Positions 1 to 56,344 of a stretch of 64,000 nucleotides of DNA are shown here, piece by piece. Where the stretch lies: assembly GCF_037042905.1 (NCBI RefSeq), contig NC_087251.1, positions 32,242,001 through 32,306,000 on the forward strand, written 5' to 3'. Position 1 is the first letter of the stretch. Each line of letters opens with the position of its first letter. The DNA comes from Lytechinus pictus (lineage: Eukaryota). The notes under the pieces were generated by a model that searched no databases, was not told the DNA's origin, and saw only the letters and a list, made by a program, of their open reading frames with translations. The translations under genes were made by a program, and so were the position numbers.

Positions 1-186
1 AACCATCAGTCACTTGGCATTTTAAGTTTTAAATACCAACCAAGAGAAAGAAAGGGGTGGAGGGCGGGGTGAGTACATGACATGTAATTTGTAAGAGAAC
101 ACAAAGAAGAATGCCCCTTTAACCCAGTCTTACCCTATCTCATCCCCTTGCATGTAACACCATCACATTACTCTGACTCTCACAAG

Positions 187-760
187 CACACTTGCTAAGA
201 TCCACATAATAAACGAAAAATGCTACACTAAAATTACAATTCCTGTTTACTCATGCATTACATTTCAATTTAGTAACTCGTGAAATTTGCTTAAGAAACC
301 AAAACGGATCTCCATTTATCAGTAATTTAGCATAACACCCTTAACTTTGCAAGTTCCAAAGGACTCACCTCAAAAAAAAAATGGAATTAAGGCTAATTCC
401 TGCTCACCCTAGCAAAGGCTAGTCTCTCAGGAGGGGTGAAAGGGGTAGAGAGAGAGAGGGGGGGGGGTTATAAGTGTTCTGTTGACCCATATCCCGTCAA
501 CCTACTTCCCCCACCTAAGTCCTATCCATATTCTGACTTCCATGAACACATTGCTGAGATCCACTTAAAAAGTGAAAAATTGTATTTCATGTTCACTCAT
601 ACATTAAATTTCAATTTAATAATTCTTAAAATTTGCTCTAAAAACCTAAATTGATAATGCTTGATCATTGATTTATCAAAACATCCTCAACTTTGCAAGT
701 TCCAAGGGACTCGCATCTCAAAAACTGAAAGAAATTGGAAGGCTAATTCCTGCCCACCCT
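187..760. repeat. Diverged direct repeat, about 220 bp of clear similarity at ~350-360 bp spacing (187-410 vs 547-760)
   Basis: Shared blocks ttgct(a/g)agatccac, aactttgcaagttccaa.ggactc and aaggctaattcctgc.caccct. Confidence 0.75.
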
Positions 761-924
761 AATTTCCATACCCTTTGTTTTAGTGGGCAGTGCTCGCTCA
801 AGCATGAAAAGTTTTCCAACTTTTTGGTGTCATTTTAAAGTTGACTTTATAGGCTTCCATGTATGTAAGTCTTTTCCCCCAAAGTGATATACTTTTTATT
901 TGGCAGCCATTTCAAAAGTGTATA

Positions 925-946
925 GTTTTTTTTGGGACGCACTGTA
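925..946. mobile_element. Right terminus of a Tc1/mariner-type MITE
   Basis: tttgggacgcactg|ta is the same terminus as the complete element at 55165-55896. Confidence 0.6.
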
Positions 947-1349
947 TAATACCTTTTATTTTACACTATTCTTCCCTTTAAAAAAAAACCTGATTGTACT
1001 CCTGCCTCCCCTGATCTGACATTTGCCTCTCAACGTACTGTACATAGTGTTATTTTATTATCTCTTTATATCGGAAACTTCGTTTTACCGAATTGCCATG
1101 CACTCTCTCCGACGCGTTTGAAGTCTTAGACAGCATGGAATACTACCAGCCGATGATACACACACGCACACACACACACGTTATTTGACAACTTGTCTCT
1201 GGAGCCAAAGTTCCTCGCATATAACTATCTGCATGCCTGCACGCAGTGTGTATTGAACACGCACGACCACGATCTAATGAATATTCATCGGCGAGAGTGA
1301 CGTCATTTTACGAGTCTCCTTTCAAACTTGGATCATAAGTGCCTACCCG

Positions 1350-1366
1350 GTTTATATAGGGCCTTG
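1350..1366. mobile_element. Right terminus of a second P-type element; its left end is not in the window
   Basis: gtttatatagggccttg is identical to the terminal 17 bp of the 1375-6266 TIR and is followed directly by CAGTAAAT. Confidence 0.7.
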
Positions 1367-1374
1367 CAGTAAAT

Positions 1375-4300
1375 CAAGGCCCTATATAAACAAGGTTGCG
1401 ACACCGGAAGTAGCCGTCATTTGCTCATGGAGCTTTTGATTAGTTCCAAATTCACCGAAGTTTGTGTACAAAGTCAATGGGGGAGATTTTTCGACAGCAA
1501 ATTTCAGGTAATAACAATTGTTATTAAGAAAAACAAAAGGATAGTTTTTAAAGAGAATTTTATGTGCTTCATTTTGATATGATTGGTTTGCAATAATTTT
1601 GAATTTTAACATGCTTTTTTACTAATTTTTAATAGTTCCAAGGCGTAAACATGACAGTAAAGATACGGTATGGGACTGGCAACTGTAGCCGGCAGTGCGG
1701 CTGGCTCAGTAGCCCGATATACGCTGTGGTTGTGTTTCCTGACGGGTTGGGTCCGGACTCACGACATCTCCTTTAATTTTGAAAAGTTTACAAAAAATAC
1801 AAGCAATGTCTTTGATTTTTTTTTTAGCTCAGAATGTAAGAAAATATTATAAAGAACAAATAATGATGGTGATAAGCATTATCCAAGCTATATTTTTTGC
1901 TTTATTTTGCTGAGAAGTGAGATAAAATAAAAAAAATGAAAAAAAGTCAGTGAGATAAACAACAGCAAGCCTAAACTTAGAAATACAAGGCTTCATTTTT
2001 CAGTGTCCGGACACCAAACCCCTCATCGATTTTCCACAGATCCAAAACAAATTTCCTGAAAATGAATCCCAAATTTTCTGAAATTCATAGACAATTCCTG
2101 GAATTTTCCATTTTGATTTTTCAAATCTGGCAATAATAATTAATACAGTGAGCCTAAATTTGGTCCAAGAAGTGACCAAAATCAAGAAATAAAACATTTT
2201 TGTTTGTCATGTCCTCTTGAAAAATAGGAACAAAATTACGAAATGACGAGGGCAGAAAATTTTGAGCTCCGACGACGGAGCCTATGTCTGGATCCGGAGG
2301 AAGATCTAATGTTAGATCTAAATCTTTGTAAAATATTACATGAATATTTTAAAGTTGCTACGGTAAATTGTCATTTAATTGTAATCATGGGCTGATCCAG
2401 GATTTTCCAAAAGGGGAGGCACATTTTCCTGAGGAAAAAATTGACATGCAAAAATAAAAGGGACTTCACGTTCAAAGGGGGGGGGGGCATACTTCTGCAT
2501 TTCTACATTACAATTTTAAATTTTGCTTCTCAAGGGGCCCCCCTTGTAATTTTTGGATTTCCCTGAATTTCCTGGAATTTTTTTCATTTCTGGAACCTTT
2601 CCTGGAAAAAGTAAAAGTTTCTTGAATTGCGGGAAGAGTGGAAGCACCCCATCCTCTTGCACTCTCCAACCACTCTTTCTGTCTTGAGTCTACGCAACAT
2701 TCATGTACAATGCACACTCAAAAAGACAGATCCATTCAGTTATTTGTTTTCATTCTAGACTTAGAAATCTTTTTTTTTTATTCACAAGAGCGCTCAAAAA
2801 CTTTTAATTTTGAGCATATTTTTGTGAGGCCCTCTGTGACTGATGCAGATCTTCATCTCCATAGACTCTCTTTTTAATCTCTTTTTAATTAGAAAAAAAT
2901 TATAAATTTCAAGAATTTAGTTTTGTGCCAAGGCATTTTTTTATGATGATGAATTCACTGTAAATATCAAGTATTCATCCAGTCTAGATCAAGAGAAAAT
3001 TGACAATCTTGTTGACAATCTTGTTCACCACACAGGTTACTAACTGTGGACAAGGTTATCACAACCTTGTGATAAAAGTGGTGTTAGCTTAGCACTGCAT
3101 TTTTTAAAAGTGGTTTAAGACCACATGGATGTTATCACAACCTTGTAGTATTGGACAAGTGCCCCTATCATACCACTAGTTGCATGTCCGGACAGGTTGG
3201 GTATCTAGACCAAAAATTTCTTCGACTAGGCCAAGTAATTTGAAATGGTTTGGAATTAAAATCAATTCTTTGTAGTTTTTCAAAGAAACTTTAAAGGCCT
3301 AATTTAGCATACATGCACATGTAGACCTCTACTCTGTTGATATGTATGGTGTGATAACTAAGTAATTACAAAAGCCAATGATAATACGTGCTTAGTTGAC
3401 AAGATAATCATTGATGCACCAAACTTATCTAAGTTAGATCTAAATGTAGATTTTTTTTTTCAATTTGATTGTGGAAAATAAAATAGGCCCTACATGTAAT
3501 TGCTGCCGATTGATCTGTTTTGGATGAGAGGAACTACTGGATAAGCCAGTAAGCTGTGTAAGTATGATTGTTTGATTTTCATCATGATTGTAATAAGATG
3601 TGATTATATTACATACATGTAGGGCTACATTGTGCAGTCAATCTTTCTTATTTCCTTGAAATGTTCTCCTTTAAATCTTTCATCATGTATCATTCCGCCT
3701 GTCTTCTGACCGCATTTTGTGCAATGTTGGATGAGTTCGACTCTCATGAAGTTCCAAATTTAAATTAAGAACTTTCATTGGTGGCAACAGCATAAAATGA
3801 GGGTCAATCTCTCACTCTCTACCTATTGTTTCTTTTATTTCATATTTAGTGTACATGTAATGATAATATAGTTGGATCATGCGTTAATTTAGATAGTTGT
3901 AAAGAGGTTGTTTTATTAAGCAAATACATTTTAATGCCAATATGAACTTTATATGGCATTGGATGGGTGAGGAGGTGCCATGGCCACATTAGTTTAGTCT
4001 GCAGGCACAGACTGAATGAAACTTGTTCTAAGTGTGGCTCCACGTAAGGACTAGCACATACAATACTTGCTGTCTGAGCGAGAGGGCTTTCAGTACACAA
4101 GGCATGAGTAGGACGACAAGAACACACTTGTCGCAACGTCAAGATTGGGTGGTCCTTTTCAGGACCAACATTTGCCCAAGAAAGATACATGATGACCATG
4201 AAACCTACTACACTATCTCAGATGTTTTTTGCTACACTATTCTTTTTTGCCATGGAAACTTCCAGAACAACATCTGAGATGGTACAGAGATTGAAGATTT

Positions 4301-6266
4301 TTGGTCTAGAAAATGTGCAAAGTATTGGCAGTGCAGAAATGAAAGTAATATTTAAAAAAAAAAGGAAGCTACATGCAAACCAACTGGATTACTAAACTCA
4401 TTTGTCCATGTACTGACACCATGAAAGCATTTAGGGTTATCATAGACTTGGTGGTCAATGATGTTCGAATATGCCTCGTGAGAATTGAACTCACCCAGTA
4501 CACAACAAAGAGTTTATAGCCAAATTGGTACTAGGCTAGACAGGAATAACCATTTCTAGGGATTTATTTAACAATTTCTGACATTTTACTAAGTGAGAGA
4601 AGCCAACGCAGTTCAGCAAAACAACCAAATACAGATACTAAAGCTTTTGGTCTAGTACTGTACTAGGCCTACTTGGGTATTTCACTTTCCTTCGGAATAG
4701 TTTTACATCACGTTGGCAACTATAAGGATAACACTGGCCTCGCCTGTATCATATATGAAAATAAAATAAAGCATGTTGATCTCTAGAGCACTGAGGTACA
4801 TGTATGTAAGGCATTGAAGTGATATAAAATCCAAAGAACACCATGGTATGTTTTTACAGGACATAAAGGGTAGAAATATTAAGAACGCTATGAAAAATTC
4901 TGTAGCGATAGGAATATAAGGGGAAACTAGCACTAGCCTTATTCTGGTGACAACTGACAAGACCACTTATCCAATGTAAAATTTTATGATATAAGTAACC
5001 TAACGTTATCCTCATTTAGTAAACATTGTGCTGTGTGGTGATTGAAATGAATAAATATTTATTTACTTTCTTTTTTTTTAATGTTCTTTATATCTAAACT
5101 GGATAAAGCACTTCACTATTTGGTACAGTCCTGGTTGTAAATTCACTTTATGCATTGGCCCCAAGCCCCCAAAATAAATTGAATTCTTGAAATTAATTTT
5201 GTTCTTATTATTTTTATTAAAAATAAGGTTAGTAGAATTGAATATCTGCATTCTGCACAGCACTTATCTCTCTTTCCATCAATTAATAGGCAATATTATA
5301 TGCTTCATCTTCAAAATCTAAATTCACAGGTTTGATTCAAATTGTCATAGTTGATTTTAATATTAAATGAACATAATTCCCAATTAAGGATACCAATCAT
5401 CTTTCCTATAACATGTTCGCATACATTTTTTGCCTACATTTTGTCATGTTTATTTTAACTCCCTGCAGCTGCATGTAGATCTAGATCTAACGTTAGATCT
5501 ATTTGGTATTATTAATAGATCTAGTAACATTTTTTGTTGTACTTTTTTGTTAATAGGGCCACATGGAAAACCACCAAGTTGATGATATGTGCCGCCCTGT
5601 GGCCTATTTAAATATCAGAAATCAAAAATAAATAAATAATTAATTAAAATTAATGATTAAGCCTTAAGCCTAGGGCCCACTCAGTCAAACTCAAACTAAA
5701 GACAGGCACAAAGATATGCTCAAATCATTCATGTTTTTGAGTGCTCTGGTAAAAAAAAATCAAATTCAGCTAAATTTACAACGGCAAAAAATCTACAATA
5801 AGAATTTAGGACATGAAACTAGTATTTATGGCACCACATGACATTCCGGTACATACTCACCTCTCGCTCTCCAAACGACCCGTGGGGGGCAGCAGAACCT
5901 CACATCCAGCCCGACAGTTCCGGGGAAAATTAGTGCAGCGTCCCGCTCGCTACCAGCAGCAGTGAGCATTTGCGGCTTGCGACGAACTCGGTTGCCATTT
6001 TTCAAATCAACGATATTTCACGATTTTTGTTATAAGATTGTACACATTTGATAAATTTAGGTGGCCGCTAATATATTGATATGGATGTGCAGTGTGAAAA
6101 TAAATTTCTAACGTCGATTTCCGATATAATTATAAAAAATGATTCAAAATTATACACGCATTTCCAATGGTAGCAGTCGACAAAAAGGCCCGGTTGGAAC
6201 TATTCGAGATCCTTCAAATTTGACCTTTGACCCCTGTTGTCGCAACCTTGTTTATATAGGGCCTTG
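1375..6266. mobile_element. 4.9-kb non-autonomous TIR transposon, P-superfamily-like
   Basis: Perfect 29-bp TIR caaggccctatataaacaaggttgcgaca (1375-1403 / 6238-6266); 8-bp TSD CAGTAAAT (1367-1374, 6267-6274). CANRG termini with 7-8 bp TSD are typical of P elements. No transposase ORF is visible. Confidence 0.85.
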
Positions 6267-6274
6267 CAGTAAAT

Positions 6275-6395
6275 GTACTAACCCCATCTACGGCGAGACA
6301 TTGTGTTACACAACAACAAAATTCAGAGTTCAGACAAACTTGTGAAAAAGCCACCGCCTTATTCCCTTTTAATGGAGAGGAACGTCAATCTATAG
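6275..6395 (+). other. Probable non-coding first exon / TSS region of the DNAJC4-like gene
   Basis: Strong donor AG|gtaagg at 6395 followed by CpG-rich unique sequence (6400-6900). Contains a short uORF, ATG 6372 to TAG 6395. The start coordinate is approximate. Confidence 0.5.
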
Positions 6396-7194
6396 GTAAG
6401 GTATAACAATCGCTGTGAATATACGCGATGGTTGATTATATGGTTGTATTTTGACATCTCAAAATCTTACCCACCATCAATTATAAATGTTAAATCTAAC
6501 TGATACAAATCAAGCTTGTCTCTATGTAGTCCGACATGTGTAAAATTGTGTACCGTCATGACCGTAGATTGTGCTTAAAATTAACCTTGTAATTGTGTTT
6601 GTAAGTGTAACCGAGACGTCGGATCGACAGCCGATATAACGATCTAATCACGGCTGACCGGCTGTTTCACACTGATCGCCAATCATACAGAGTGTGTCAG
6701 TGTGATCGGTGGCTATTTGAGTCTGACTTGGCAAGTCTTGCCACACGGCGCAATTTTTAAACAGTTTCGAAGTCAAAGCAATTTTAAAATGCGTGCTGAT
6801 ACTACCTAGATCGTGCAATTAATCTGAGTTCTCGACTCCGACTCCGTGACTTATATTCATTTTTATTTTCCTTTCCAACGATGTCGAGAAAATGCGCTAT
6901 TTAATAGGAACGGGAGATCACAACGAAATGTTTATAAAATGTTGATTTCTTGTGATGATTGGGGGTGATTAGTGTCTTGAGTTCTGGTGTGGGAGCGGAG
7001 TGACTGATCGGGGGGGGGGGGGTACTTTGAAAAATTGTGTAATTCAAAGCAATAAAAAAAAAAGAAATAGTGACAGACATCAAATCTCCGGTATTTTATA
7101 GATGGCAAATATAGCGATCTTCAACGCAAGTTATATATAAGCGTCGAAATTTGTAGCCATCTCCTTGTATTAGTCTATATTATACGACGTGTCA

Positions 7195-12714: not shown

Positions 12715-12812
12715 ATGCCATTTACCAATGCTTTCACGCTATGCACCAGATGTCAGCACAAACTTATACTTCAAAGTCTGCACCATGTTAGAGGAATAAC
12801 AACAGGAATAAG
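12715..12812 (+). CDS. DNAJC4: DNAJC4-like coding exon 1 (exon starts at 12685): MPFTNAFTLCTRCQHKLILQSLHHVRGITTGI
   Basis: Polypyrimidine tract + aag acceptor ending 12684, ATG at 12715, donor AG|gtttgt at 12812 (phase 2) in frame with the J-domain exon. No acidic residues, as in a mitochondrial presequence. Confidence 0.75.
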
Positions 12813-15800
12813 GTTTGTCATGGCTTGAAGCTTCATCTTTATATTAATATTAATCTTTGCTTGTTAAGACAGTGTACATTATTGTTTAAAGGGTTTTTTA
12901 AAGGTTATACTGTAAAGAAGAATTTTCATGTTAAAAGTATTAAAAGTAATTATATATTTCTCTACTAGGATAGTGCTTCTTAGGGACACTAGTCTCCCAC
13001 TAATAGGAATAAGTAAATCTGTACTATATGGTCATGTTGTCAGTCACATTGTTGCAATTTTTTTTCCATTACCTGTTATTTTCAGTATGTGGATTCCTAA
13101 ATTTGTCATGTTTGATGATCATTGATGTCAAGTCTATCCACGTTCTTACTTGTACTAATACATTTTTGTCAGTGATAAATTAATCAAGTTCTTTTCAAGT
13201 AATTATATCAGTGACAGATTTTTGTGTGAATGACAGTTGTAACATTTGTTCTAAAGTCTCAAAGGATTATTTATTTCTCTGTTCATTTACAGGCTTAGGA
13301 GCCAGACACAATCAAACCATTATGAGACTTTAGGTTTGCCAAAAGATGCAACCAGTTTAGAAATTAAAGCAGCATACTTTGAATTGTCTAAAATGGTAAG
13401 TGTGTATGCCTGTCATTGGAAGTTTCAGGTACATGTATACTCTTCCACCACCTTTTCTCTCTTTCTCTCCCTATTTTTTGTTCTACTTGTTCTCTCTTGC
13501 TCAACAGTTAATCTGTGCGACAAATATTTGAAAACAGTTGATATAAATATGTATTAACAGACTCTCCAAAATTAATAGCTTATCTGCATAATAAACAGTT
13601 TATTTACTAATTAAATTTATAGAAAATTCTCTAAATAGTAACAGTTAATGTGCAATCCATTACTTAAACCTACAATAATCATATGACGTCATGGAGCACA
13701 TATAAATCAAACATAAAACACGATTCTAATCCTCACTTCTATATGAATATGAACTGCTCATTAGCTGATTATTTTAGGGTGAAGGTATGATAGTTGAGTG
13801 CTTTCTTAGGGGATTCAACTGAAGTGTTTGTTCTTATTATGTTTTTTTGGAAGTCTCAGTAAATGCACACAACATAGAGCAAATGAAGTTAGATATCTAC
13901 AGTCACACACACCCACTGCTGCTGACATTTATATCTCTTAAGCCTGTCTCACACTATGCGATCTGGTGCGACGCAATTTTTCAAGAAATCGCATTTTGCA
14001 TTAAATATGAACGTTCCAAAAAGTAAAATTATTTTATTCAAAGTTTGTCATATTGTTAGGGAAACTTAAATCATATTTTTACTTTGTGGCAAGCCCTATG
14101 CAGAGCTGCCAAATAGTACGATTTTGTCGTATTCCGTACGATTTTTCACTTAAAATACGACACTAGGATTTTTACAAATAAAATACGATTTTTTGAAAAT
14201 ATAGCTATGGCAAGATCGACATTACAGAAATCCACCTCGGGCAATCATTATTGAAAAATGTTAAGTTTTGGTGGCCCGAATCGGGCAACCAATAATTTTC
14301 ACAGTAGCGCAATTTTTCTCCCGATTTTGCACGCATTTATCAACTTTTTACAGTTCAAATTGCAACCAATTTGTCATGCGCCCTTTTTGTTGATCTACAC
14401 ACAAATACACACACACATGACAGTACATAGGCTTACCGCTATAACATACAGTAGCTATTATCCAGCCGGGCGGCTGGCTGGCGTGCGTGAGCTTTGCATG
14501 AAACCACTGCAGCTACATGTAGCTATCTGTGCGCTATCAGCCTATTCAGACTCGGGGAGCTATGATACGAAATGTTGCTGCTAAGAAATCTTCCACAGAA
14601 CTTTGAAAATCTATGTCAAAGTCACATTTTACAACAATGAATTGCCCTTCTACAGTCCATATTACTCAAATCTGGTGTAAACTGACTATTTGCAAGCATT
14701 AAAAACAGGAATTATGACCTCTCTTTTGACTCAAAAAGACCGATTTCCAAATGTATTAATACACATAAAAACACATAGGTGAGTACATCACAGTCCCATA
14801 TGTGCATTTGTATGTATGTTGATACTTGGTTTCTTTCGAAGCTGTGTCTTTTCTAGCAAAAAATAAGCAGGCCGTTTTTTTCTTTTTTGTTTATAAATGA
14901 CTTCTTAAACCACTCTTCAGAAAGAAAATACTTTGGGAAGGCATTTCATTGATATGAAATGTGAATTTTTCAAATATTTTGGCAAACAAAGTAAAGGACT
15001 TCTCACACTTTTTTTCCAGATATAACTTTTGCCGTTTTCTTATTTTTTTTTTTTTTTTGACAGTGGTTAAACCATATAACCCTTCCCATTGAATATGCCT
15101 GATTAAAGAATATGTTTCTACTGAAAAAATAATACAAGCGAAATTAAGGTTATAAAAATTGAAATGCGCCATCCCCAAAAGGTGAGTGAAAATTATTTGC
15201 TCAATTGGCTTAAACTGTTGCTACGTACAGCTGTTAAAAATATTTGTAATGGCTTCTCATTTTTACCCCTTCCCCATTTTTTATTAATTTTGTTTTATTA
15301 ATTTTTTTTTTCATTTTCTTTTGTTTCTTTTTTTCTTTATTTTTTTTTCTTTTTTACTTCTTTTTCCTGTTCTGTTTTTCTTCATTTTCTTTCTTTTGTT
15401 TTATTTCACTTATTTTTAATTATTTTTGTTTTCTTTTTGTAATATTCTTTTAATTTTTTTTTGCTCGTTTCCCACTTTTATGCATTGTTCTAATTTTGCA
15501 GCATATTTTTCTGTGATTTTCTCCGCTATAATATGCTGCAAAAGAGAAAACAAAAATAAATGGGATTTGGAGCCTGTATAATCTAGGTTTTAGGATTCAA
15601 AGAGGAAGAAAGGAAAAATCATTGTTTTGTACATTTATATGAGTTAGCTTTGCACTATTTTTACTATTATGAGTGTGTGTCTATACAGAGATTTTTTTTA
15701 AAGTCCACACATCCTGGGAACAATACATTTCACTCTCTTTCAATCATTTCATATTTACAATGATAGAACAATTTATATTTTACCACAAATCAATTAGCAA

Positions 15801-18800
15801 AGTAAAATAACAGCAAACAAGATTTACATACAAGATGTACAAAATGAAAGTGACTTAGTGGTAGTGGCTGCAGAATTGATATTTCAGAAGTTTGTTGTAT
15901 TCATTTTTAATGTTTTTCTTTATATTTTTGGGGCCACCAAACTTTAATATCGGGCCATCAAAACAAATAATTTGAAGGTTTTGGTGGCCCGAACGGGCCA
16001 GCACTAAAAAAAGTTAATGTAGAACCTTGCTTGTCGGATGTAAAAATTACGGTGAGCACAACAAAATAATGAGATGTATAGTAGGAAAGTACATAACGGG
16101 TACGAATAGGATTTTTTGTCTAAAAATAGGATTTTTGGGGTGAAATATAGGATTTTTTGTCAAGTGTGGTTGGCAGCTCTGCCTATGGTCGGAGCAAAGT
16201 CCAAATCGTCTTCAAGTCACAGCCGATGATGACGTTATTACGATTTGGAGTTTAATTTGTTTTATTCCTCCAGGGAAGCTCGAATTAGACTGAATTTCGA
16301 TTTCAGTATAGTCCTACCACTATTCTGAACTTTGATCCGTGATATCTTATTAGTTGGAATATCCATATCAAATGTTTTCACAATTAATTTGAAATTTGGA
16401 TCGCAACGAATCGCATATTGTGAGGCGGCTTTAGATTGATGCCATCTTGAATTCTTTTCCTAATTGTTACCCATCCAGCTCCATCCCGATGCCAATCCCC
16501 AGAACCCTGATCAACACGATCGCTTTGTGCAGCTGAGTGAGGCGTATGGAATCCTAAGTAAAACAACCTCTAGGAGAGAGTATGATCTGAGTCTTACCAG
16601 GCCACATGTAAAGGAGATCAGAGTACACAATATGGATGTCTCACCGGACAACCCATTCGGTGGACACAGTGAAGCAGATTGGTAAGATAGTCAGTTTCTT
16701 TCAGGGTCCCAACTAACTTTGCTTTCTCACAAAGACTGAAACCCTGTCACCTGTTTGTATGATCCGCTATACATGCCAGCAAGCTAGATTAACGATACAT
16801 AGCATGCATCACAAGTTTTGGTTGAACCCCATTTCCTGTTAAGTTTTGATACAATATTTCCACAGTAAATTGTGAATAACAAAATTGACACTAATTGTCA
16901 CCATTCATAAATAAGTATTTGTGCGTATAAGTATGCACAAACGTCAATATTATTGACAATATTGGCAATATTGTCAATAATATCAATTGTAACAACCACT
17001 TTTTATATAGTGAGTCGCCCAATTTCAGACTTTAATTTAAGGGAATTTTTCACTTTGCAAAATGTGAGCCGCATGATGTTAATTGGTAAGAAAACATTTT
17101 TTCCCCTGTTCTTTAAAGTGTGCTGCTATTGTAGGCCTATTGATATTCATTTTGATTATAGTAATGTAAAAATGAACCCCAGATTAAATATTGAATTCAA
17201 AGCACCATCATGTTCTTCAAAAAGTGTGAGAATAATGGTGTGTAAGTATTATAGGAATTGTCCGATATTTATTTTCCCTGGGCATACAAAACAGTGTTAT
17301 GTTTTATGAATTGCACTATTCGGTCATAGTTTTTTTTAATGCATACATAACAAAATGTTATGTTGGCTGCGGCCTTGTTGTCGTCGTTGCTGGTCAAACT
17401 TGTCTCATGTGGGAAGAGGAAGTCTATGGGAACGGTTGATATTGGACGGTTGGATATCTATTTGAAACCCATCCCTGACAAGATTGATTGATGAAGGTAT
17501 GGTTTTGTACTTGAAAATAAAATAGAATTTCATTTTTTTTCTTTGATCAGGTTTCCAAGAACTCACATCTTCAGAGCAGGTGGTGATGAGAAGGTCAATG
17601 AGAACTACTATGGAATCAAAGGACTCAGGAGGGTTAGAAACTCATATGTAGTGTATGGATGTATAGCATTCATCTTTACTGGTGCTGTCTTCCATTTCTT
17701 TGTTTTCAAGTAAGTTCTGTTTGGTGTAAGGTCATCCGTGACCCAACCATTGCTCCTATGACAAGTGATTTTGTATAAAAGGAAACCAAACATTAAGGAT
17801 AGAATCAATCTGAGAACGATAAGATGAGATCATCAGCTTAAAAGAAGGTTTATCATAATCAGGAAATTTGTCCTGCAACGCTTTTGATCATTATTTTAAT
17901 TTTAATTTGCATGTAGACAACATGTTGCAAAAATTAGGTCAATTAGTTGGTTTTCTGGGAAGATTGCAGCGATCCTTAGGTGAATCGACTCTGAAATTAA
18001 TATGTAGTTGATTGTTGTTTACGATGCAGCCTTTAGGAAATACACAGACCGCCTAAAAAAACAACTACCAAACAGGGCAGGCCGTATTATACTCCAGATT
18101 AAACCCGAATCTCAAATATTTATTTTGGAAATGCATAATACACTTAATTGGCAATTGTTGGACAAAAGAAGAAATGACCACTCCCTTGTTCTCATGTATA
18201 AAATCATGAACAATCTCTCCCCATAATATTTAAGAAATTGATTTGAGTTAGTAACACATACCGGGTAGGCTACATATCCCTCCTGTTTTGGAACCAAATT
18301 TGAATAACCCAAACCAAGAACAAATTACATCGAAAGATCCTTCAAGTAGAAAAGCACCATGGCTTATAATTCATTAAATCATCCCCTAGTATTAATGTTT
18401 TCCAATCTAAGATTGTTGATCTGTAGAAAATGGACTCCGGAACCCCCCTCCTTCCATTCCCTGTTACTAGGTTTACACCCCTTCACTTTTGTTTTTGTTT
18501 TTCTGTTTGTTTTGTTTAATCCACCATATTTTATGCTTTTATTATAGAAATAAATCCTATTACTACTACTACTACTATTGGGATCCTTGAATTAACAAAT
18601 GTGCTTCAAAATGACTGATTTTGTGGACATCTCTATATTTGTTTTGCACACAAATTATCAGCCTTTCCTCATAATCTTCCAAATGCCATATTTCCACTGG
18701 AAAACAACATATGTCATAGGGAAGTATAATTCACACCATGTATATCAATGTCAGGAGGAGATATCAGAAATATGTAAAATAAAGGGGAAAATAATGTGTA

Positions 18801-21653
18801 CAAAACAGATGAGTTGACGCATGATTGTCAATTTGAGGATCCCTATATAAAGTGTTGCAAGACTTTTCAAACTTCCATAAGTCTCTTGTTTTATTACAGA
18901 TTTCAATGAAAATTGTTTTGTTGACTTTCTTAGAAACTCCCATTTTGCCCTTCCGATCAGAATGATTCTCTCCTTGGGTTTTGGTTTCCTTTAATTTGTC
19001 TGAAAACAGGTTTAGGATTTGAATTGGGGTTTAATTCAGAATGATTCTTAGACACCTTACTGGTAATAATGGAGATTTAAAAAAAAAAAAAAAAAGCTTC
19101 GAATGGATGCTGGTTCTTATAAGCGGTCATTCATTTTGCTTTCAAAACATACAAAGAAGGCTCTCCATCAAGGCACATTGCAAGGAGATGCAGGTTGAAA
19201 GTTAAGATTTAGGATAGCTACTTTGATTATCTCTCCTGCTGTTTGGGAATATTTATTATCAAAAGGAGTCCCACACTGAATTCCTGGGCAGTAATAATGT
19301 GAGTCCCTTAATCCCGGTAGTTGATTGATATATCACTGTCCGAAAGATGACGGTTTGTTTATTTTCTGTCTGTCCCGAGTCATAGATTCTTAGTGAGTCA
19401 TTTTACAAGGGTAGCACATCTTCCTCTCACTGCCTAGTTTCTATTCCTACTTTTTGCAGTTGGTTTTGTATGGTTGTATGGAGGTCGCTGCACAATTTAA
19501 AGAAATTTTAAAATTCCTCCCCGTTTCATTTTACCCTTGTTATTATGGTATTTCAATAGACCATTTTGTAGTTACTTCGTGGCCAATTTTGGTCAAATGA
19601 CCTTTCATTTCTTTCATTATGAAGGTAGATTTAATAGACCATGTGACTAGAATAGCACACCAATGAACACTCTATGGAGGTATTTGTTGCATTTCTACTT
19701 TGAATGCATTAGCTTGATGTTATAGCAATGTACTTGGCTAACTGTGATACCGGTCGCTAGTGGAAGTATTGTTGTTTTTGTGGATCTGATGAAAAACACA
19801 ATTAAAAAGAATATATTAATAATCAAGACATCAAAGTTGGTGCTTATCTCATTAAATATCAAACCACCATGTCACTTAAGTACCAATGACCTGCTTCTGA
19901 TCATGCGGAGAATGGAATTTCAAAATGGCTTATATGTTGGTAGTTTTTATTTTTTTCCCTAAATTCAGTATGTACAAGTAATGAGATTCAAAATAATACT
20001 TGCATGTTTTAATTTTTTTTTTTTTCATTTTCCCAGACAAAGTAGCCAGTATGCAACACAAAGACTAGATGCTAAGGATAGGAAAATTGCAGAACTGTAT
20101 AACGAAGCCAAAGAGAGAGCAAGGTAATAGTATAATTTTGTTTCTGATTTTGATATTTTTTGTTTTTAGCTCATCCGGCCCGAAGGGCCAGATGAGCTTA
20201 TGGCGTGGCGTCTGTCGTCTGTCGTCCGTCCACAATTTCAAAATGCTTCTTCTTCGCCATTTCAAGTCCGATTTCAATTCTGTTTGCTTTATATGATAGC
20301 ACTAGGTGGGGGATTCAAAACTTCTACACAGAATTTTGAAATTTTCAGTAGAAAATTATATATGCAAAATGTTTCATAAATCACAGAAAATGCCTTTTCT
20401 TCTGTATTTGTTGACCGATTTTGATTTTTTTTTCCATCTGGTAGAGCTGCATGAGGTTCACCAAACTTGTACACAAAATTTTGAAATTTTGTCTAGAAAA
20501 TTATTTATGCTAATTTATGCAAAGTTTATTCATAAATCACAAAAAATGTTTTTTCTTCATTTGTTGATCAATTTCAATTTTGTTTGCTTTATATGATAGC
20601 TCGAGGTGGAAATACAGAATTTCAACACAGAATTTTGAAACTCATTAAATATGCTAATTTATTCATATATTTTCAAACTCACAAAAAATACTTATTTATT
20701 TGTTGATTGATTTTGATTATTTTTGTTCCATCTGAGAGCTACATGAGGTTCACCAAGGTTCTACACAGAGTTTAGAAATTTTGACTAGAAAATTATTTAT
20801 GCTTAATTTATATGAAATTTATTCATAGATCACAAAAAATGCTTCTATGTCATTTCTTCATCAATTTCAATTCTATATCCTCAATTTATGTCACCTATGT
20901 AATTCACTACAGTGTCAACTGGGCTGAAATTAAAATTGTTAAATTTTGTTGCGAGATGCGGGATGAGCTCCACATCATTGATGTGCTAGCTAATGATTAG
21001 GATAATGGTAACCATGAAATAATGCTGATGTTGATGTTTCCCTTACCAGTGATGAACCATGAATGGACTTATGTTTCTTTTTTATGCTTTTCATTAAAAC
21101 CAACTTGCAATATGGTGAACTTCCTCCTTCAGAACCAAACACAAATTTACGAATTTTTAGCCAAAGGAATAAGATGATTATTTTTCATCAGTCCATTATT
21201 AAATGTTGCTACAGATATATACCAGGGATATGATTCAATCAAAATTCTGAATATTAATATTATTTCATTGAAGATTGCAGGGAGAAGATTGCACTGGTGA
21301 AAACCCCATAGAGAATTCGTACATGTGACACAGACCAAGGCCGAGGTCAAGGCGGGCAAAATGTGACCTCAAGGCCCGCCTTGATGCATCTCTGGAAGAT
21401 TGTAATCTTTTTTACAATATTTTTAAACAATATTTTTGGGATACTTATTATGGATAATAATATGACATTTTGATTATAGTTCGATGCATTCAGGGATGTG
21501 AATATATTCAAGGATGTAATTGTATTTTGCTATTAATCATTAATGTATTGCCTTTGCAGGAAAAATGGACCCAGGAAACAGATGGAGTTATTAAGAGAAA
21601 GACACAATGCAAACCAAATGAAGCTTGCCAAACAACTTGAAGGAGACACATGA
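12715..21653 (+). CDS. DNAJC4: DnaJ homolog subfamily C member 4-like, spliced gene: join(12715-12812,13293-13395,16479-16681,17551-17709,20037-20123,21560-21653), 744 nt, 247 aa
   Basis: Six exons with GT-AG boundaries and matching phases give one ORF. It has a basic N-terminal presequence-like segment, a J domain (NHYETLGL...EIKAAYFELSKMLHPD...FVQLSEAYGILS...RREYD), NYYGIKGLRRVRNS followed by one hydrophobic TM segment, and a basic helical tail (DAKDRKIAELYNEAKERARKNG). This matches the DNAJC4/DnaJ-60 architecture. Confidence 0.9.
13293..13395 (+). CDS. DNAJC4: DNAJC4-like coding exon 2: J-domain helices I-II
   Basis: tttacag| acceptor and |gtaagt donor; encodes LRSQTQSNHYETLGLPKDATSLEIKAAYFELSKM. 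Confidence 0.93.
14101..16181. mobile_element. hAT-like element with 6-bp TSD, middle layer
   Basis: TIR cagagctgccaa / ttggcagctctg; TSD CCTATG (14095-14100, 16182-16187). Confidence 0.85.
14211..16029. mobile_element. 1.8-kb non-autonomous P-type element, copy 1 (inner layer)
   Basis: Full-length inverted homolog of 31164-32973; termini caagatcgacatta / taatgtagaaccttg; TSD not preserved. Confidence 0.8.
16479..16681 (+). CDS. DNAJC4: DNAJC4-like coding exon 3: HPD motif and J-domain helices III-IV
   Basis: ccatccag| acceptor and |gtaaga donor; encodes LHPDANPQNPDQHDRFVQLSEAYGILSKTTSRREYDLSL... Confidence 0.93.
17551..17709 (+). CDS. DNAJC4: DNAJC4-like coding exon 4: NYYGIKG motif and transmembrane segment
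   Basis: tgatcag| acceptor and |gtaagt donor; encodes FPRTHIFRAGGDEKVNENYYGIKGLRRVRNSYVVYGCIAFIFTGAVFHFFVF. Confidence 0.9.
17905..18578 (+). mobile_element. Decayed 3' fragment of an L2-group LINE
   Basis: Translation HVDNMLQKL...NRAGRIIL...LNWQLLDKRR...MYKIMNNLSP...PKPRTNY..RSF with stops and frameshifts; ends in aataaa plus a (TAC)n tail. Confidence 0.75.
20037..20123 (+). CDS. DNAJC4: DNAJC4-like coding exon 5
   Basis: ttcccag| acceptor and |gtaata donor; encodes QSSQYATQRLDAKDRKIAELYNEAKERA; phase 2-2 is consistent. Confidence 0.88.
20163..20991 (+). mobile_element. Helentron-associated non-autonomous element (HINE / DINE-1-like)
   Basis: T-run then agctcatcc (5' subTIR), nearby inverted gatgagct, GTCT/GTCC microsatellite, internal ~150/300-bp tandem repeats, 3' ggatgagct and terminal hairpin cacatc-att-gatgtg. 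Confidence 0.75.
21560..21653 (+). CDS. DNAJC4: DNAJC4-like terminal coding exon
   Basis: ctttgcag| acceptor; encodes KNGPRKQMELLRERHNANQMKLAKQLEGDT then TGA. Confidence 0.85.
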
Positions 21654-21895: not shown

Positions 21896-23717
21896 TTTTT
21901 TGTTTGTTTGTTTTATTTTTATTTCTGCGTTCACAATACATTATCATAAATATTTACATTGTTTGTAATATACAAAATAATTCATAATGCATACAATATA
22001 AACATAATACATAATTTGAAGGAAAAAAAATTGTGTGGGCATATACTTCACATTTTGATAATAAAAAAGGAAACATTAACAAAATTTAATGAACGCAGGA
22101 GACCGCCATCGTGAGCGGTTAAGCTTGTAATTGATGGCGGCCTCATAAAAAGGGTTCGTGACTATGATTGGTATAATTACTGAACAAGTGGGTGCAATGC
22201 AGGTGCAGGTGCGGGTGCAGAAGATAGCTGTATAATTTATATTTTTTATTTAATTTATAGTGGTAAATGAGGATTAATTTGAAGGTTGGGATGAATAAGA
22301 TCTTATGATATTTCTTTTAACAGTTGATTTTAAAGAGTATAAAGTGGAACAAGATTTAATATTTTCTGCAAGATTATTCCAAATGTCTGGACCATGATAA
22401 CTATTGAACTTAAACATATCATCAAAAGACGAAGGGAGTAGGTTATTAATATACTTAAACATAATGATAGCTACTTGAAGAGTATACAAGTCGGCAAATT
22501 TTAGTGTTTTCTGTTTGAAAAATAATGGATCAGTGTGAGCCAAGTAATGAGATCCTGTACAAATGCGAATAACTCTCTTTTGTAATTTGAAAATAGAAGT
22601 CAGCTTTGTTGAGCCACAATTAGCCCAAACAACGTTACAATAAGTAATATACGGGAGTACTTAGGAATTGTACAATAGGAATAAAGTTTTAAGAGGCAAA
22701 ATAAATTTTAACTTAGAAATAATTCCAATGCTTCTCGAAATACGCATTGTAATATGGTGCAGATGCTCATTCCAAGATAAAGCTTCATCTATGATAACCC
22801 CTAAAAATTTAGAGTGAGTTTTCCGTTCTAATGACTTGCCGTCAATCTGTAGGTGAAATTGAGTGTTAGAAATATGAGAGTGATGTTTAAAATATATGTA
22901 GTGAGTTTTGTGTGTGTTCAAAGATAATTTGTTAGCTTTGAACCACTGTGATACTTTGTTTATTTCATGATTTAAAATATTGTATAACGAAGTAGGATTT
23001 GTATGAGAAAAAAAAATATTTGTGTCGTCAGCGAATAATACAAAAGATAAAATGGATGATGTATTAATAATGTCATTGATATATAGTAAAAATAATAGTG
23101 GGCCTAATATGGAGCCTTGAGGGACACCACAACGAACTAAAAGTGAGTCAGAGTCATAACCATTAAATGCGACGTATTGTTTTCGATTTCTTAAGTAATC
23201 TGTAAACCAAAGGAGGGATTGACCTCGTACGCCATAATAATTAAGTTTTGAGAGTAGAATGTCGTGATTAAGTGTATCAAATGCCTTACTAAGGTCACAA
23301 AATATGCCAATGACATGTTCTTTATTAGCAATGGCGTTTGTAATTTTATCATAGATTTGGATTAAAGCCAAGTTTGTTGAGTAATTTTTCCTAAAGCCAT
23401 ATTGATTAGAATTTAGCAGATTGTGTTTGCTGATGAATTTATAAAGTCTGTTATATACTATTTTTTCTAAGATTTTTGATATAGTTGGGAGAAGAGAAAT
23501 GGGGCGATAATTATTAATTTCATGAGGATTGTCTTTTTTGAAAATTGGATTGACTTTGGCGATTTTGAATAAGTCAGGAAAAACTCCTTGTGATAATGAT
23601 TCATTAAAAATGTTACTAAGAGGATTAGCAAGTGGGTAAATTATTTCTTTTAAAAGAGACATACTAATTCTATCATGTCCATGCGATTTTGAACTGTTAA
23701 GAGACCGTGTAATATTG
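21896..23717 (-). mobile_element. 5'-truncated L2-group (Crack-like) LINE: reverse transcriptase plus 3' UTR
   Basis: RT motifs NYRPISLL, QYGFR, DLSKAFD, GVPQGSILGP, FADD, KFLG. The frame continues through one TAA (22661-22663) to 22274. The 3' UTR ends in aataaa plus A/CAAA-rich tail; possible flanking duplication ATATTG. Confidence 0.92.
22274..23715 (-). pseudogene. LINE ORF2 RT/C-terminal remnant with one premature stop and an apparent internal deletion
   Basis: ORFs 22661-23737 and 22274-22543 are in one frame, linked by VLPYITYCNVVWANCGSTKL...QKRVIRI. Confidence 0.85.
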
Positions 23718-24214
23718 ATATAAAACGACCCCCTCAAATTTTACATTATTTTTAAGTGTTATTTGAAAGTATAGATCATGTTTAGTTCATTAATATTTAT
23801 CTATTGAGCCTAATATAAATGTTCTTTCAAAAGTGGAACATTTCCCATTTGACCTTCCCCTTTTAGCCACTTGGTTCATACTTATAACTTGCACATGTAA
23901 GAATACGGTATCTTATTTCTTCCTGTTACAATGCAAAATTCCTAGCTAATTGCTGTGCAATGTAAGTGTTATGAAAGCTGATATTTTTCATCTCTTTTTC
24001 CAGTATTTTTGTTATTTAAGGCTTTTTAAAAATATATCAGTAGAAGATTATATTGCCATGTTTTTTTTATATGTCGAGAATTAGATGTGGGGGTGGGGGA
24101 CTTCGGAGGACCAATAAGAGCCAAAGTGATCAGATATCATCCCCTTTTTTTTCTACAGAATACTTGCTTTACATTATAGGAATGTACACAAAGCTGTATT
24201 GTATTTCTAGAGGG

Positions 24215-55072: not shown

Positions 55073-55164
55073 TTAATTTGAAAAAACCCCGCTTCCTTGC
55101 GATATTCTAGAGTTTGAACGCTTGTCTCATAATCATGATTTTCTAATGTCATGTAGGGCCTATA

Positions 55165-55896
55165 CAGTGCGTCCCAGAAAAAACGAAACCGAGATTTAGC
55201 GATGATTTATCATAACTTAATCAAAAATAAAATAGACAAATGACCTACCAATGTAAAGCTTAGAATCTCCTCTTTCATCTGATATTGATTAGATTATTCC
55301 TCATTCACGCATGAGTGAGCAAAAACAATTTGAAGGAAGGATACCAAAAACTCATTTGGCGGGGGGTATATGAATTTCAAAAAGAAAATCACATGTCTTA
55401 AAAGTTCAAAAAAAATTAATTTCATTAAATAAACTGTTTTCACCGGTTTCCCACAGAAGCTATCGCATGGAAAAGACTTAATGCATGGCTGATCGTAAAC
55501 AAAACTGAGTGTCGAGTGAGTTTGAACGCTAGCCTGTAAAACCTCTTAATTTTATGAAATTATTAAAATTCAAGCCTTATTTCAAATAACCAGAACTTTG
55601 TTATTTCTTGACCATTTTATGTAATTGAGGTATCAAATTAAAGAGCAGATATTGAACTTTTTTAAAATGTGGTTTTCCTTTTGAAAGCTATATACAACCC
55701 GCCAAATGACTTCATGGTATCCCCTCTTCAAATTATTTTTGCTCACTCATGCGTGAAGGAGAAATAATCTAATTAATATCAGATGAAAGAGGAGATTCTA
55801 AGCTTTACATTGGTAGGTCATTTGTTTATTTTATTTGTGATTAAGTTATGATAAATCATCGCTAAATCTCGGTTTCGTTTTTTCTGGGACGCACTG
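55165..55896. mobile_element. Tc1/mariner-type MITE with long (~200 bp) inverted arms
   Basis: TA|cagtgcgtcccagaaaaaacgaaaccgagatttagcgatg with a near-perfect inverse at the right end, followed by TA. Confidence 0.92.
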
Positions 55897-56344
55897 TATA
55901 GGTATAAAAGTTTACAAGGCCTAGCCCTATTGATGTGCGAAATGAGCACGAACCAGAAATAATTTACTTCATACTAAAACGTTTTGTTTCATAACATTAC
56001 TTTACTATTTATTGATTTGTTTCAGGTAAGATAGATAATAGTAGCCTGAGAAAAATCTGATAAATGAAACAAATACTTTAGGAAGAAAACGTATATTTAA
56101 GATAGGACAGTTTATACTCAGTAAAAATAGAATAACCTTGCTTTAAAGTGGGATTTAATGTCATGAATGTGGGAATATATAAACATTACAGTAAAAACTT
56201 TGGATTTAGGAATAGTACCGACGATAACTTAATAAATCAAGCTGAAATCAAGGGTCTGACATGAATTTGCGAAATGTTGCGCAATATTAGAACCGCTTAC
56301 GAACCCGGAGGTCGCAAATTTGGTCTCAAAAATTGCGCCAGCTA

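What the first reader, a model, noticed from the sequence alone, without database searches (positions are those of the whole stretch)
1350..6274. Two related P-type transposons stacked at one 8-bp target at the probable DNAJC4 promoter
Seen: [..gtttatatagggccttg]-CAGTAAAT-[caaggccctatataaac..4.9 kb..gtttatatagggccttg]-CAGTAAAT. The upstream end matches only the last 17 bp of the TIR and then diverges, so it belongs to a different family member rather than a simple duplication. The target is ~120 bp upstream of the probable exon-1 donor (6395). Known: CANRG termini with 7-8 bp TSDs mark P-superfamily elements, and Drosophila P elements favour promoters and sites next to existing P ends. Inference: repeated base-precise insertion at one site suggests a site-preferring P-like family that builds tandem arrays at a housekeeping promoter.
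Basis: partly seen in the sequence, partly recalled or inferred. Interest (0 to 1): 0.75.

Follow-up and report, generated by a model that had tools for sequence, protein, structure and literature searches.

The report
Reused P-like target with excision stub
A gene-less 4.9-kb jumping element sits at the likely start of a sea-urchin chaperone gene beside a 17-base piece of the same element end, which is likely half of an excision scar, so the same eight bases were likely hit twice, probably guided by a short motif five bases away, rather than two whole sister elements being stacked.

Summary
The sequence is as described: a 4,892-bp element (1375-6266, 29-bp perfect TIRs, TSD CAGTAAAT) preceded by the last 17 TIR bases, 121 bp before a probable exon-1 donor of Lytechinus pictus DNAJC4-like. 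The "sister element" reading is weak. Seven contigs from public runs share the upstream DNA only to 1347-1349 and then enter unlike sequences, and that DNA lacks the element's subterminal words. It is the tip of another multicopy element. What remains is a 17-nt stub, the Drosophila P cut depth: likely half an excision scar split by that element (50%), or an older whole P-like copy hit in its TIR (25%). Either way the target was likely used twice, but there is no array. A second family copy has a 12-bp motif (10/12 alike) in the same register beside its own 8-bp target as here (p about 0.003), supporting offset, motif-guided targeting. Double insertion and 17-nt cuts are known from flies. This scan noted both scars and motif-guided stacking before, on other DNA of this genome. 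No transposase was seen; no genome was available.

The parts
1034..1347 (.). End of a different multicopy element (here called U). Its tip is at 1347 (GG-type) or 1345 (TAG-type); its left limit is unclear (junction at 1034-1047) and no inverted partner lies in the window
   Evidence: contigs leave at 1347-1349 into unlike sequences, variant branches at 1294 and 1341; no partner of the tip within 5 mismatches; unrelated to either end of the inner element
1348..1349 (.). Two bases (CG) between the U tip and the stub; they match neither TIR position 18 nor 19. Likely scar filler or U's target
1350..1366 (-). 17-nt right-end stub, TIR positions 1-17; likely half of an excision scar
   Evidence: the 17-nt cut is from PMC7776569 section 7
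1367..1374 (+). 8-bp target copy CAGTAAAT between stub and inner element
1375..6266 (.). 4,892-bp non-autonomous P-like element with 29-bp perfect TIRs (1375-1403, 6238-6266); no transposase remnant found
   Evidence: 35 of 77 stop-to-stop frames of 35 aa or more scanned, no transposase family
1419..1507 (+). First exon carried by the element's left end (donor CAG|GTAATA at 1507|1508)
   Evidence: records 6, 31, 32 end at 1507-1508 with loose tails
3487..3517 (+). Start of a second exon inside the element (acceptor AG at 3485-3486)
   Evidence: the loose tail of an X7 contig matches 3488-3517 at 29 of 30 shown letters
1631..1641 (+). 11-bp subterminal word; inverted copy at 6194-6204, 9-bp copy at 1441-1449 (67 and 65 bases from the two tips). 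A 12-bp pair at 1593-1604 / 6142-6153
   Evidence: 4 shared words; 2.4% of 2,973 random block pairs reach 4
6267..6274 (+). 8-bp target copy on the gene side
6280..6293 (-). Offset motif, 5 bp beyond the target (core 6281-6292, CGTAGATGGGGT on the minus strand); likely positions the insertion
   Evidence: same register in the X5 flank, 10 of 12 letters
6275..6395 (+). Promoter and probable non-coding exon 1 of DNAJC4-like, donor at 6395|6396; transcription start not mapped
   Evidence: the splice to the next exon was not shown

Best explanation
One intact gene-less P-like element sits at the likely DNAJC4 start, and the extra 17-base end beside it is likely the right half of an excision scar left by an earlier insertion at the same eight bases, likely split later by an unrelated element. 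Steps: (1) inferred: a P-type transposase places its 8-bp staggered cut five bases to one side of a short motif (6280-6293). (2) Inferred from known chemistry: insertion duplicates the target, so the motif-side copy is again a correct target. (3) Inferred: excision cuts 17 nt inside each end and leaves target + stub/stub + target. (4) Shown as structure: a family member now sits in the motif-side target, giving stub-target-element-target-motif; it could be the same element hopping back beside its own scar. (5) Shown: the DNA left of the stub is the tip of another multicopy element; inferred: it landed at the scar centre, and the left stub and left target lie beyond the window or were deleted.
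For: Structure and coordinates. The stub is exactly 17 nt, 17/17 identical to the inner TIR, with positions 18-19 both different. The Drosophila P cut is 17 nt inside the TIR (PMC7776569 section 7); end joining leaves the overhang between target copies (PMC3878927 passage). Seven contigs in 5 listed rows (X1, X2, X5; 2 studies) share the upstream DNA to 1347-1349 and go on into unlike sequence at the point where the window turns into the stub. The upstream DNA shares no subterminal word with the element. Other family copies exist: TIR-bearing contigs with two other flanks. One of these 2 listed flanks has the motif in the same register, 10 of 12 letters: p 8e-5 raw, about 0.003 after correction (hand count; p). 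Only 2 of 128,000 strand positions in the window come within 2 mismatches of the core. Target regeneration by double insertion is described for P (10.1101/158386 passages).
Against: The left stub and left target copy, which a scar predicts, are not in 1-1349, and U's left end was not found. The two bases CG need a filler or an 18th base. TIR positions 18-29 still match the upstream DNA at 6 of 12 (p 0.08), a faint hint of kinship. The motif rule rests on two sites, one of them a 30-letter loose end; the second listed flank lacks the motif (expected if it is the far side, untested) and a third flank was not displayed. No transposase is linked to these ends, so the P-type cut is assumed. The contigs that leave at 1347 could in principle be splice products; the window has no GT there.
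Confidence: 0.5

Rival explanations
1. A true dimer: an older whole P-like element of a sister family occupied the target, the 4.9-kb element inserted at the regenerated copy, and U then landed 19-21 bases inside the older element's right TIR. The older body lies left of U, outside the window.
For: Same head-to-tail junction with the target inside, as in fly P dimers. An earlier scan note reports two P-like families back to back in this genome (e1-7810261; not checked).
Against: Needs a sister TIR that is identical for 17 bases and differs at 18-19, and also a U insertion within 2-4 bases of that point. The scar model needs only one to three filler bases.
Confidence: 0.25
2. A single insertion with a repair accident: the 25-bp right end plus target was copied to the left side, or the left 17-nt overhang was copied by fold-back, and joined to U's tip.
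For: 1350-1374 is a perfect direct copy of 6250-6274. 1350-1391 forms a 17-bp stem with the target as loop. No left target copy is in the window.
Against: Fold-back would have to prime without paired bases. The join would have to fall within 2 bases of a natural tip of U by chance.
Confidence: 0.13
3. One reading: the DNA left of 1350 is the body of a related P family that shares only the terminal 17 bp.
For: 6 of 12 matches at TIR positions 18-29 (p 0.08). CpG-rich, promoter-like make-up at 1001-1400, as at a transposon end.
Against: Seven contigs leave at 1347-1349 into unlike sequences. No shared subterminal words; alignment at random level.
Confidence: 0.08
4. Assembly artefact at the short inverted repeat.
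For: No DNA run of this locus could be laid.
Against: The junction coincides with a natural boundary seen in independent contigs, and the stub has the P cut length.
Confidence: 0.03

Closest known systems
Drosophila P element: 17-nt staggered donor cut and end-joined donor site (PMC7776569, passages and sections 6-7 read; PMC3878927, passages)
   Same: 8-bp TSD, perfect TIR of similar length (29 against 31 bp), short subterminal inverted words, non-autonomous copy, 17-nt end piece beside a target copy, position at a gene start
   Different: No transposase shown here. The three 8-bp targets seen each match the fly core consensus at 1 of 8 (hand count against PMC2577343). The shared signal lies on one side, five bases away, not in a 14-bp palindrome centred on the cut.
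P-element tandem dimers by double insertion (McGurk and Barbash, 10.1101/158386; passages read)
   Same: Right end, 8-bp target, left end, head to tail, near a transcription start; the target is preserved and reused
   Different: Only 17 bp of the first partner are visible; no array; the reuse appears to follow an offset motif
hAT superfamily non-autonomous elements
   Same: 8-bp TSD, short TIRs
   Different: 0 of 3 targets fit NTNNNNAN (PMC3878927 passage); hAT excision through flank hairpins would not leave a 17-nt TIR stub
Academ, IS3EU or Merlin-type ends, for the upstream element U (PMC10045372, passages)
   Same: U's tip reads TAG.. (or TA..) if it ends at 1345, and GG.. if it ends at 1347; TAG ends of Academ-like elements come from earlier scan notes, the GG start of Merlin is recalled
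   Different: TSD length and far end not seen, so no assignment

Membership tests
P superfamily (inner element) | 8-bp target-site duplication | tested here: met
   CAGTAAAT at 1367 and 6267
P superfamily (inner element) | Short perfect terminal inverted repeats (31 bp in Drosophila, 13 bp in zebrafish) | tested here: met
29 bp perfect; reference lengths from PMC7776569.
P superfamily (inner element) | Subterminal inverted repeats or internal binding sites of 10-12 bp | tested here: inconclusive
   11- and 12-bp inverted words at both ends; 2.4% of random pairs reach that count; found post hoc, binding not shown
P superfamily (inner element) | THAP / P-type DDE transposase acting on these ends | tested here: inconclusive
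   No transposase family in 35 of 77 frames scanned; no genome to look for a partner; the 3-kb contigs that start in the left end could not be fetched
P superfamily (inner element) | Staggered donor cut 17 nt inside the TIR | tested here: inconclusive
   One stub of exactly 17 nt; its left partner was not seen
Drosophila P element proper | 14-bp palindromic target motif centred on the TSD | tested here: not met
   3 of 3 targets match its 8-bp core at 1 of 8 positions (hand count); n is small and the fly motif is weak
hAT superfamily | NTNNNNAN target consensus | tested here: not met
   0 of 3 targets
Tandem dimer by double insertion | Target copy inside a head-to-tail junction | tested here: met
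   1350-1403
Tandem dimer by double insertion | Two whole elements with a third target copy on the far left | not testable with these tools
   No left end or target in 1-1349; sequence left of the window not held
Academ / IS3EU / Merlin (upstream element U) | TSD length (3-4 or 9-10; 6; 8 bp) and both termini | not testable with these tools
   Only one end in view; lengths from PMC10045372
CTCF site (offset motif) | Match to a CTCF matrix and CTCF binding | not tested
   The label comes from note e1-7810261 and from recall; no matrix was on hand

The most novel reading that the evidence does not exclude
A sea-urchin P-type transposase chooses its target by a one-sided ruler: it cuts an 8-bp site exactly five bases beside a CTCF-like motif, read directly or through the bound host protein. 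Each insertion and each excision leaves the site reusable, so promoters with the motif go through insert, excise and re-insert cycles, and this locus is a record of one such cycle. The 3-kb spliced RNA that starts in the family's left end would be the mRNA of that enzyme.
Probability: 0.35. Interest if true: 0.75.

Novelty: new variant of a known kind. Interest (0 to 1): 0.42.

Why it matters
Reuse of a target and 17-nt cuts are known from flies, so the stack itself is ordinary. What would matter is the targeting rule. A eukaryotic cut-and-paste enzyme that inserts at a fixed distance from a short motif would be a natural site-directed integrase, and would explain repeated hits at gene starts in an animal with new genetic tools. 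This locus adds one independent two-site test of that rule. It also shows that the family's left end works as a first exon spliced to different downstream exons.

Tried and rejected
Whole genome: none held, so no genome-wide TSD, motif or transcription-start table. Sequencing runs: 8 listed, all with shares of 0.06-0.10, no RNA holder listed on record and no DNA run of the locus; 5 of the 8 were laid. Parts without cover, not used as evidence: no contig of the 58 laid was seen over 1350-1373 (the depth of bin 1359-1377 equals what contigs starting at 1374 give, by hand); cover is near zero at 6400-6636 after the donor. No empty allele or 1347-to-6275 joint was among the rows shown (27 joints hidden; 6 loose ends and 27 pieces hidden). 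My first idea that 1089-1347 is exon 1 of a divergent host gene (note) was dropped. A trans-spliced leader or a splice donor at 1347 was considered and judged unlikely: the window has no GT there, and all 5 listed continuations begin with G or C (p 0.005). Pattern scans: TIR and U tip in metagenome contigs 0 and 0; TIR in prokaryote genomes 0; one 17-mer hit in viral contigs that does not extend, chance. Rfam 0 in 1-7000. No other CA..TG scar with a 7-8 bp TSD in the window. The two foreign second exons are not in the window. Sequence look-ups in earlier findings gave nothing. Paper searches: DNA transposon + insertion preference + CTCF motif + transposase, 0 papers (one query only); CANRG, 0; no paper on P elements of this species among the listings. 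The AcademH paper is not held. No supplements were read; family tables in them or in Repbase may already name these elements.

Full report
Observation. The structure is exactly as described. Bases 1350-1366 are the reverse complement of the first 17 bases of the TIR, CAGTAAAT follows at 1367-1374, and an element with 29-bp perfect TIRs runs from 1375 to 6266, closed by a second CAGTAAAT. The 17-mer at that place has a chance of 7e-11 and the TSD match 4e-5. The neighbouring gene is the DNAJC4-like gene of Lytechinus pictus: one exon is 100% identical to that protein, six coding exons map at 12715-21650, and the start codon is in the exon at 12715. The donor-like site at 6395|6396 would therefore close a non-coding first exon. 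Its splice to the next exon and the transcription start were not shown.

The inner element. It is non-autonomous as far as tested: 35 of the 77 stop-to-stop frames of 35 aa or more (most of the longer ones) gave no transposase family in Pfam, while two DnaJ exons in the same call were found. Its ends share four inverted words of 9-12 bp within 300 bases of the tips, one of them 67 and 65 bases from the two tips; 2.4% of 2,973 random block pairs reach four. This resembles the subterminal repeats of P (PMC7776569 section 6). It is a family: contigs of public runs carry the TIR with two other flanks (X5, X7), and interior stretches of up to 591 bases are matched with 0-6 differences, others more loosely. 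With an 8-bp TSD and no fit to the hAT target consensus (0 of 3; PMC3878927 passage), P-like is the best label, but no enzyme was tied to these ends.

What lies left of the 17 bases. No genome was held, so I laid contigs of five coded runs from two studies. In one search, 58 contigs were laid on 960-1520. Five listed loose-end rows, holding seven contigs from runs X1, X2 and X5, share the window up to 1347, 1348 or 1349 and then go on into unlike sequence; pieces shown there are 491 to 5,793 letters long. Two rows are mixtures of two contigs each, and 6 rows were hidden. Variant branches leave at 1294 and 1341. The window turns into the stub at the same point. The simplest reading is a DNA boundary: 1034/1048-1347 is the tip of a different multicopy element, U, and the first base after it is always G or C (5 of 5 rows, p 0.005), as with a target preference. 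Read inward, U shares none of the inner element's subterminal words and aligns at 16-17 against a random mean of 18.8. Against this: TIR positions 18-29 match the upstream DNA at 6 of 12 (p 0.08), and the contigs may come from RNA, so splicing cannot be fully excluded, although the window has no GT at 1348. U's other end is not in the window, and its superfamily is open.

What the 17 bases are. With U set aside, the upstream end is a stub of exactly 17 TIR bases plus two unmatched bases. The Drosophila P transposase cuts one strand at the tip and the other 17 nt inside the TIR (PMC7776569 section 7). It follows that the flank keeps the complementary 17 nt, and end joining leaves overhang sequence between target copies (PMC3878927 passage). 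A scar of 17 + one filler base + 17, or 17 + three + 17, with U inserted at its centre, gives the observed letters. The left half is predicted beyond U and is not in 1-1349; a junction at 1034-1047, where two sets of contigs overlap by 14 bases, may mark a deletion. The first, second and fourth readings all mean that the target was used twice (about 0.83).

Why the same eight bases. An earlier scan note (e1-7810261) claimed that P-like families of this genome insert five bases beside a CTCF-like motif. I tested this with my own data. Read toward the element, the window's gene-side flank is motif, 5-base spacer, 8-base target. The X5 flank of another copy has a different target and spacer, but its letters 15-26 from the TIR read CGTAGAGGGCGT against CGTAGATGGGGT here: 10 of 12, and 14 of all 31 letters compared (hand count). 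The raw p is 8e-5, about 0.003 after allowing for 20 window starts and 2 flanks; only 2 of 128,000 strand positions in the window come within two mismatches of the core. The X7 flank lacks the motif, and an X1 flank was not displayed, so the count is 1 of 2 listed. A one-sided motif predicts that only the motif-side target copy is reused, which makes the 4.9-kb element the later arrival, or the same element re-inserted beside its own scar.

Comparison with what is known. Double insertion that preserves the target, and its enrichment near transcription starts, is described for fly P elements (10.1101/158386, passages). Fly P prefers a 14-bp palindrome centred on the cut (PMC2577343, passages); the three targets seen here match its core at 1 of 8 each. 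One search for an offset CTCF-type preference found no paper, which is thin grounds for novelty. I also saw passages of PMC10983969, PMC12426944 and PMC10045372; PMC7165386 is not held; no supplement was read. Earlier notes of this scan already report P-like scars (e1-9959645, e1-7810740, e1-9108328, e1-9911650) and stacked targets (e1-7810261, e1-8075584) on other DNA of this genome; I could not check their genome-wide counts.

A side result. The element's left end behaves as a first exon. Contigs end at the donor 1507|1508; one X7 contig goes on with letters that match 3488-3517 at 29 of 30, behind an acceptor. A 2,978-nt X7 contig goes on into a foreign exon with an early ATG, and a 3,016-nt X1 contig ends at the same donor (its tail was not displayed). 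That length would fit a P-type transposase mRNA, but a host gene driven by the element's promoter fits as well.

Verdict. Real and correctly seen, but not two whole sister elements and not an array as far as the window shows. It is a P-like insertion in a reused target with a 17-nt remnant and an unrelated element next to it. The stack is a known kind of event; the offset motif is the new part, was noted before in this scan, and gains one independent two-site test here. Interest 0.42; the most novel reading has probability 0.35 and interest 0.75.

Noticed in passing
window 1419-1507 and 3487-3517: The element's left end acts as a first exon: spliced to an exon inside the element and, in other copies, to a foreign exon in contigs of about 3 kb with an early ATG (candidate transposase mRNA or a host gene driven by the element). 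A variant end continues into contigs of 2.35 kb in X1 and X7.
   Followed up: partly
window 5860-6010, minus strand: GC- and CpG-rich stretch in the element's right end with a YY1-like word at 5994 (label recalled) and a donor-like site near 5860: possible second, inward promoter; contigs cover 5752-6142.
   Followed up: no
window 1034-1347: Tip of an unclassified multicopy element with a CRE-like palindrome at 1298 (label recalled) and high CpG; all listed flanks start with G or C, or with CC[C/G] if the tip is at 1345.
   Followed up: partly
window 1034-1047: 14-bp overlap where one set of contigs ends and a U-like contig begins: possible microhomology deletion junction.
   Followed up: no
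window about 690-945: High-copy repeat whose end reads like a Tc1/mariner-type miniature element with TA (label recalled); similar ends at 55161-55184 and 55877-55900.
   Followed up: no
window 2030-2650, 4030-4270, 4550-4660: High-copy repeats nested inside the 4.9-kb element (many contigs and loose ends); boundaries not worked out.
   Followed up: no
   Followed up: no
window 22277-23740, minus strand: Frames of 359 and 128 aa that read like a LINE reverse transcriptase remnant (by eye, not scanned).
   Followed up: no
window 169-411 and 529-761: Diverged direct repeat, 73% identical, covered by contigs.
   Followed up: no
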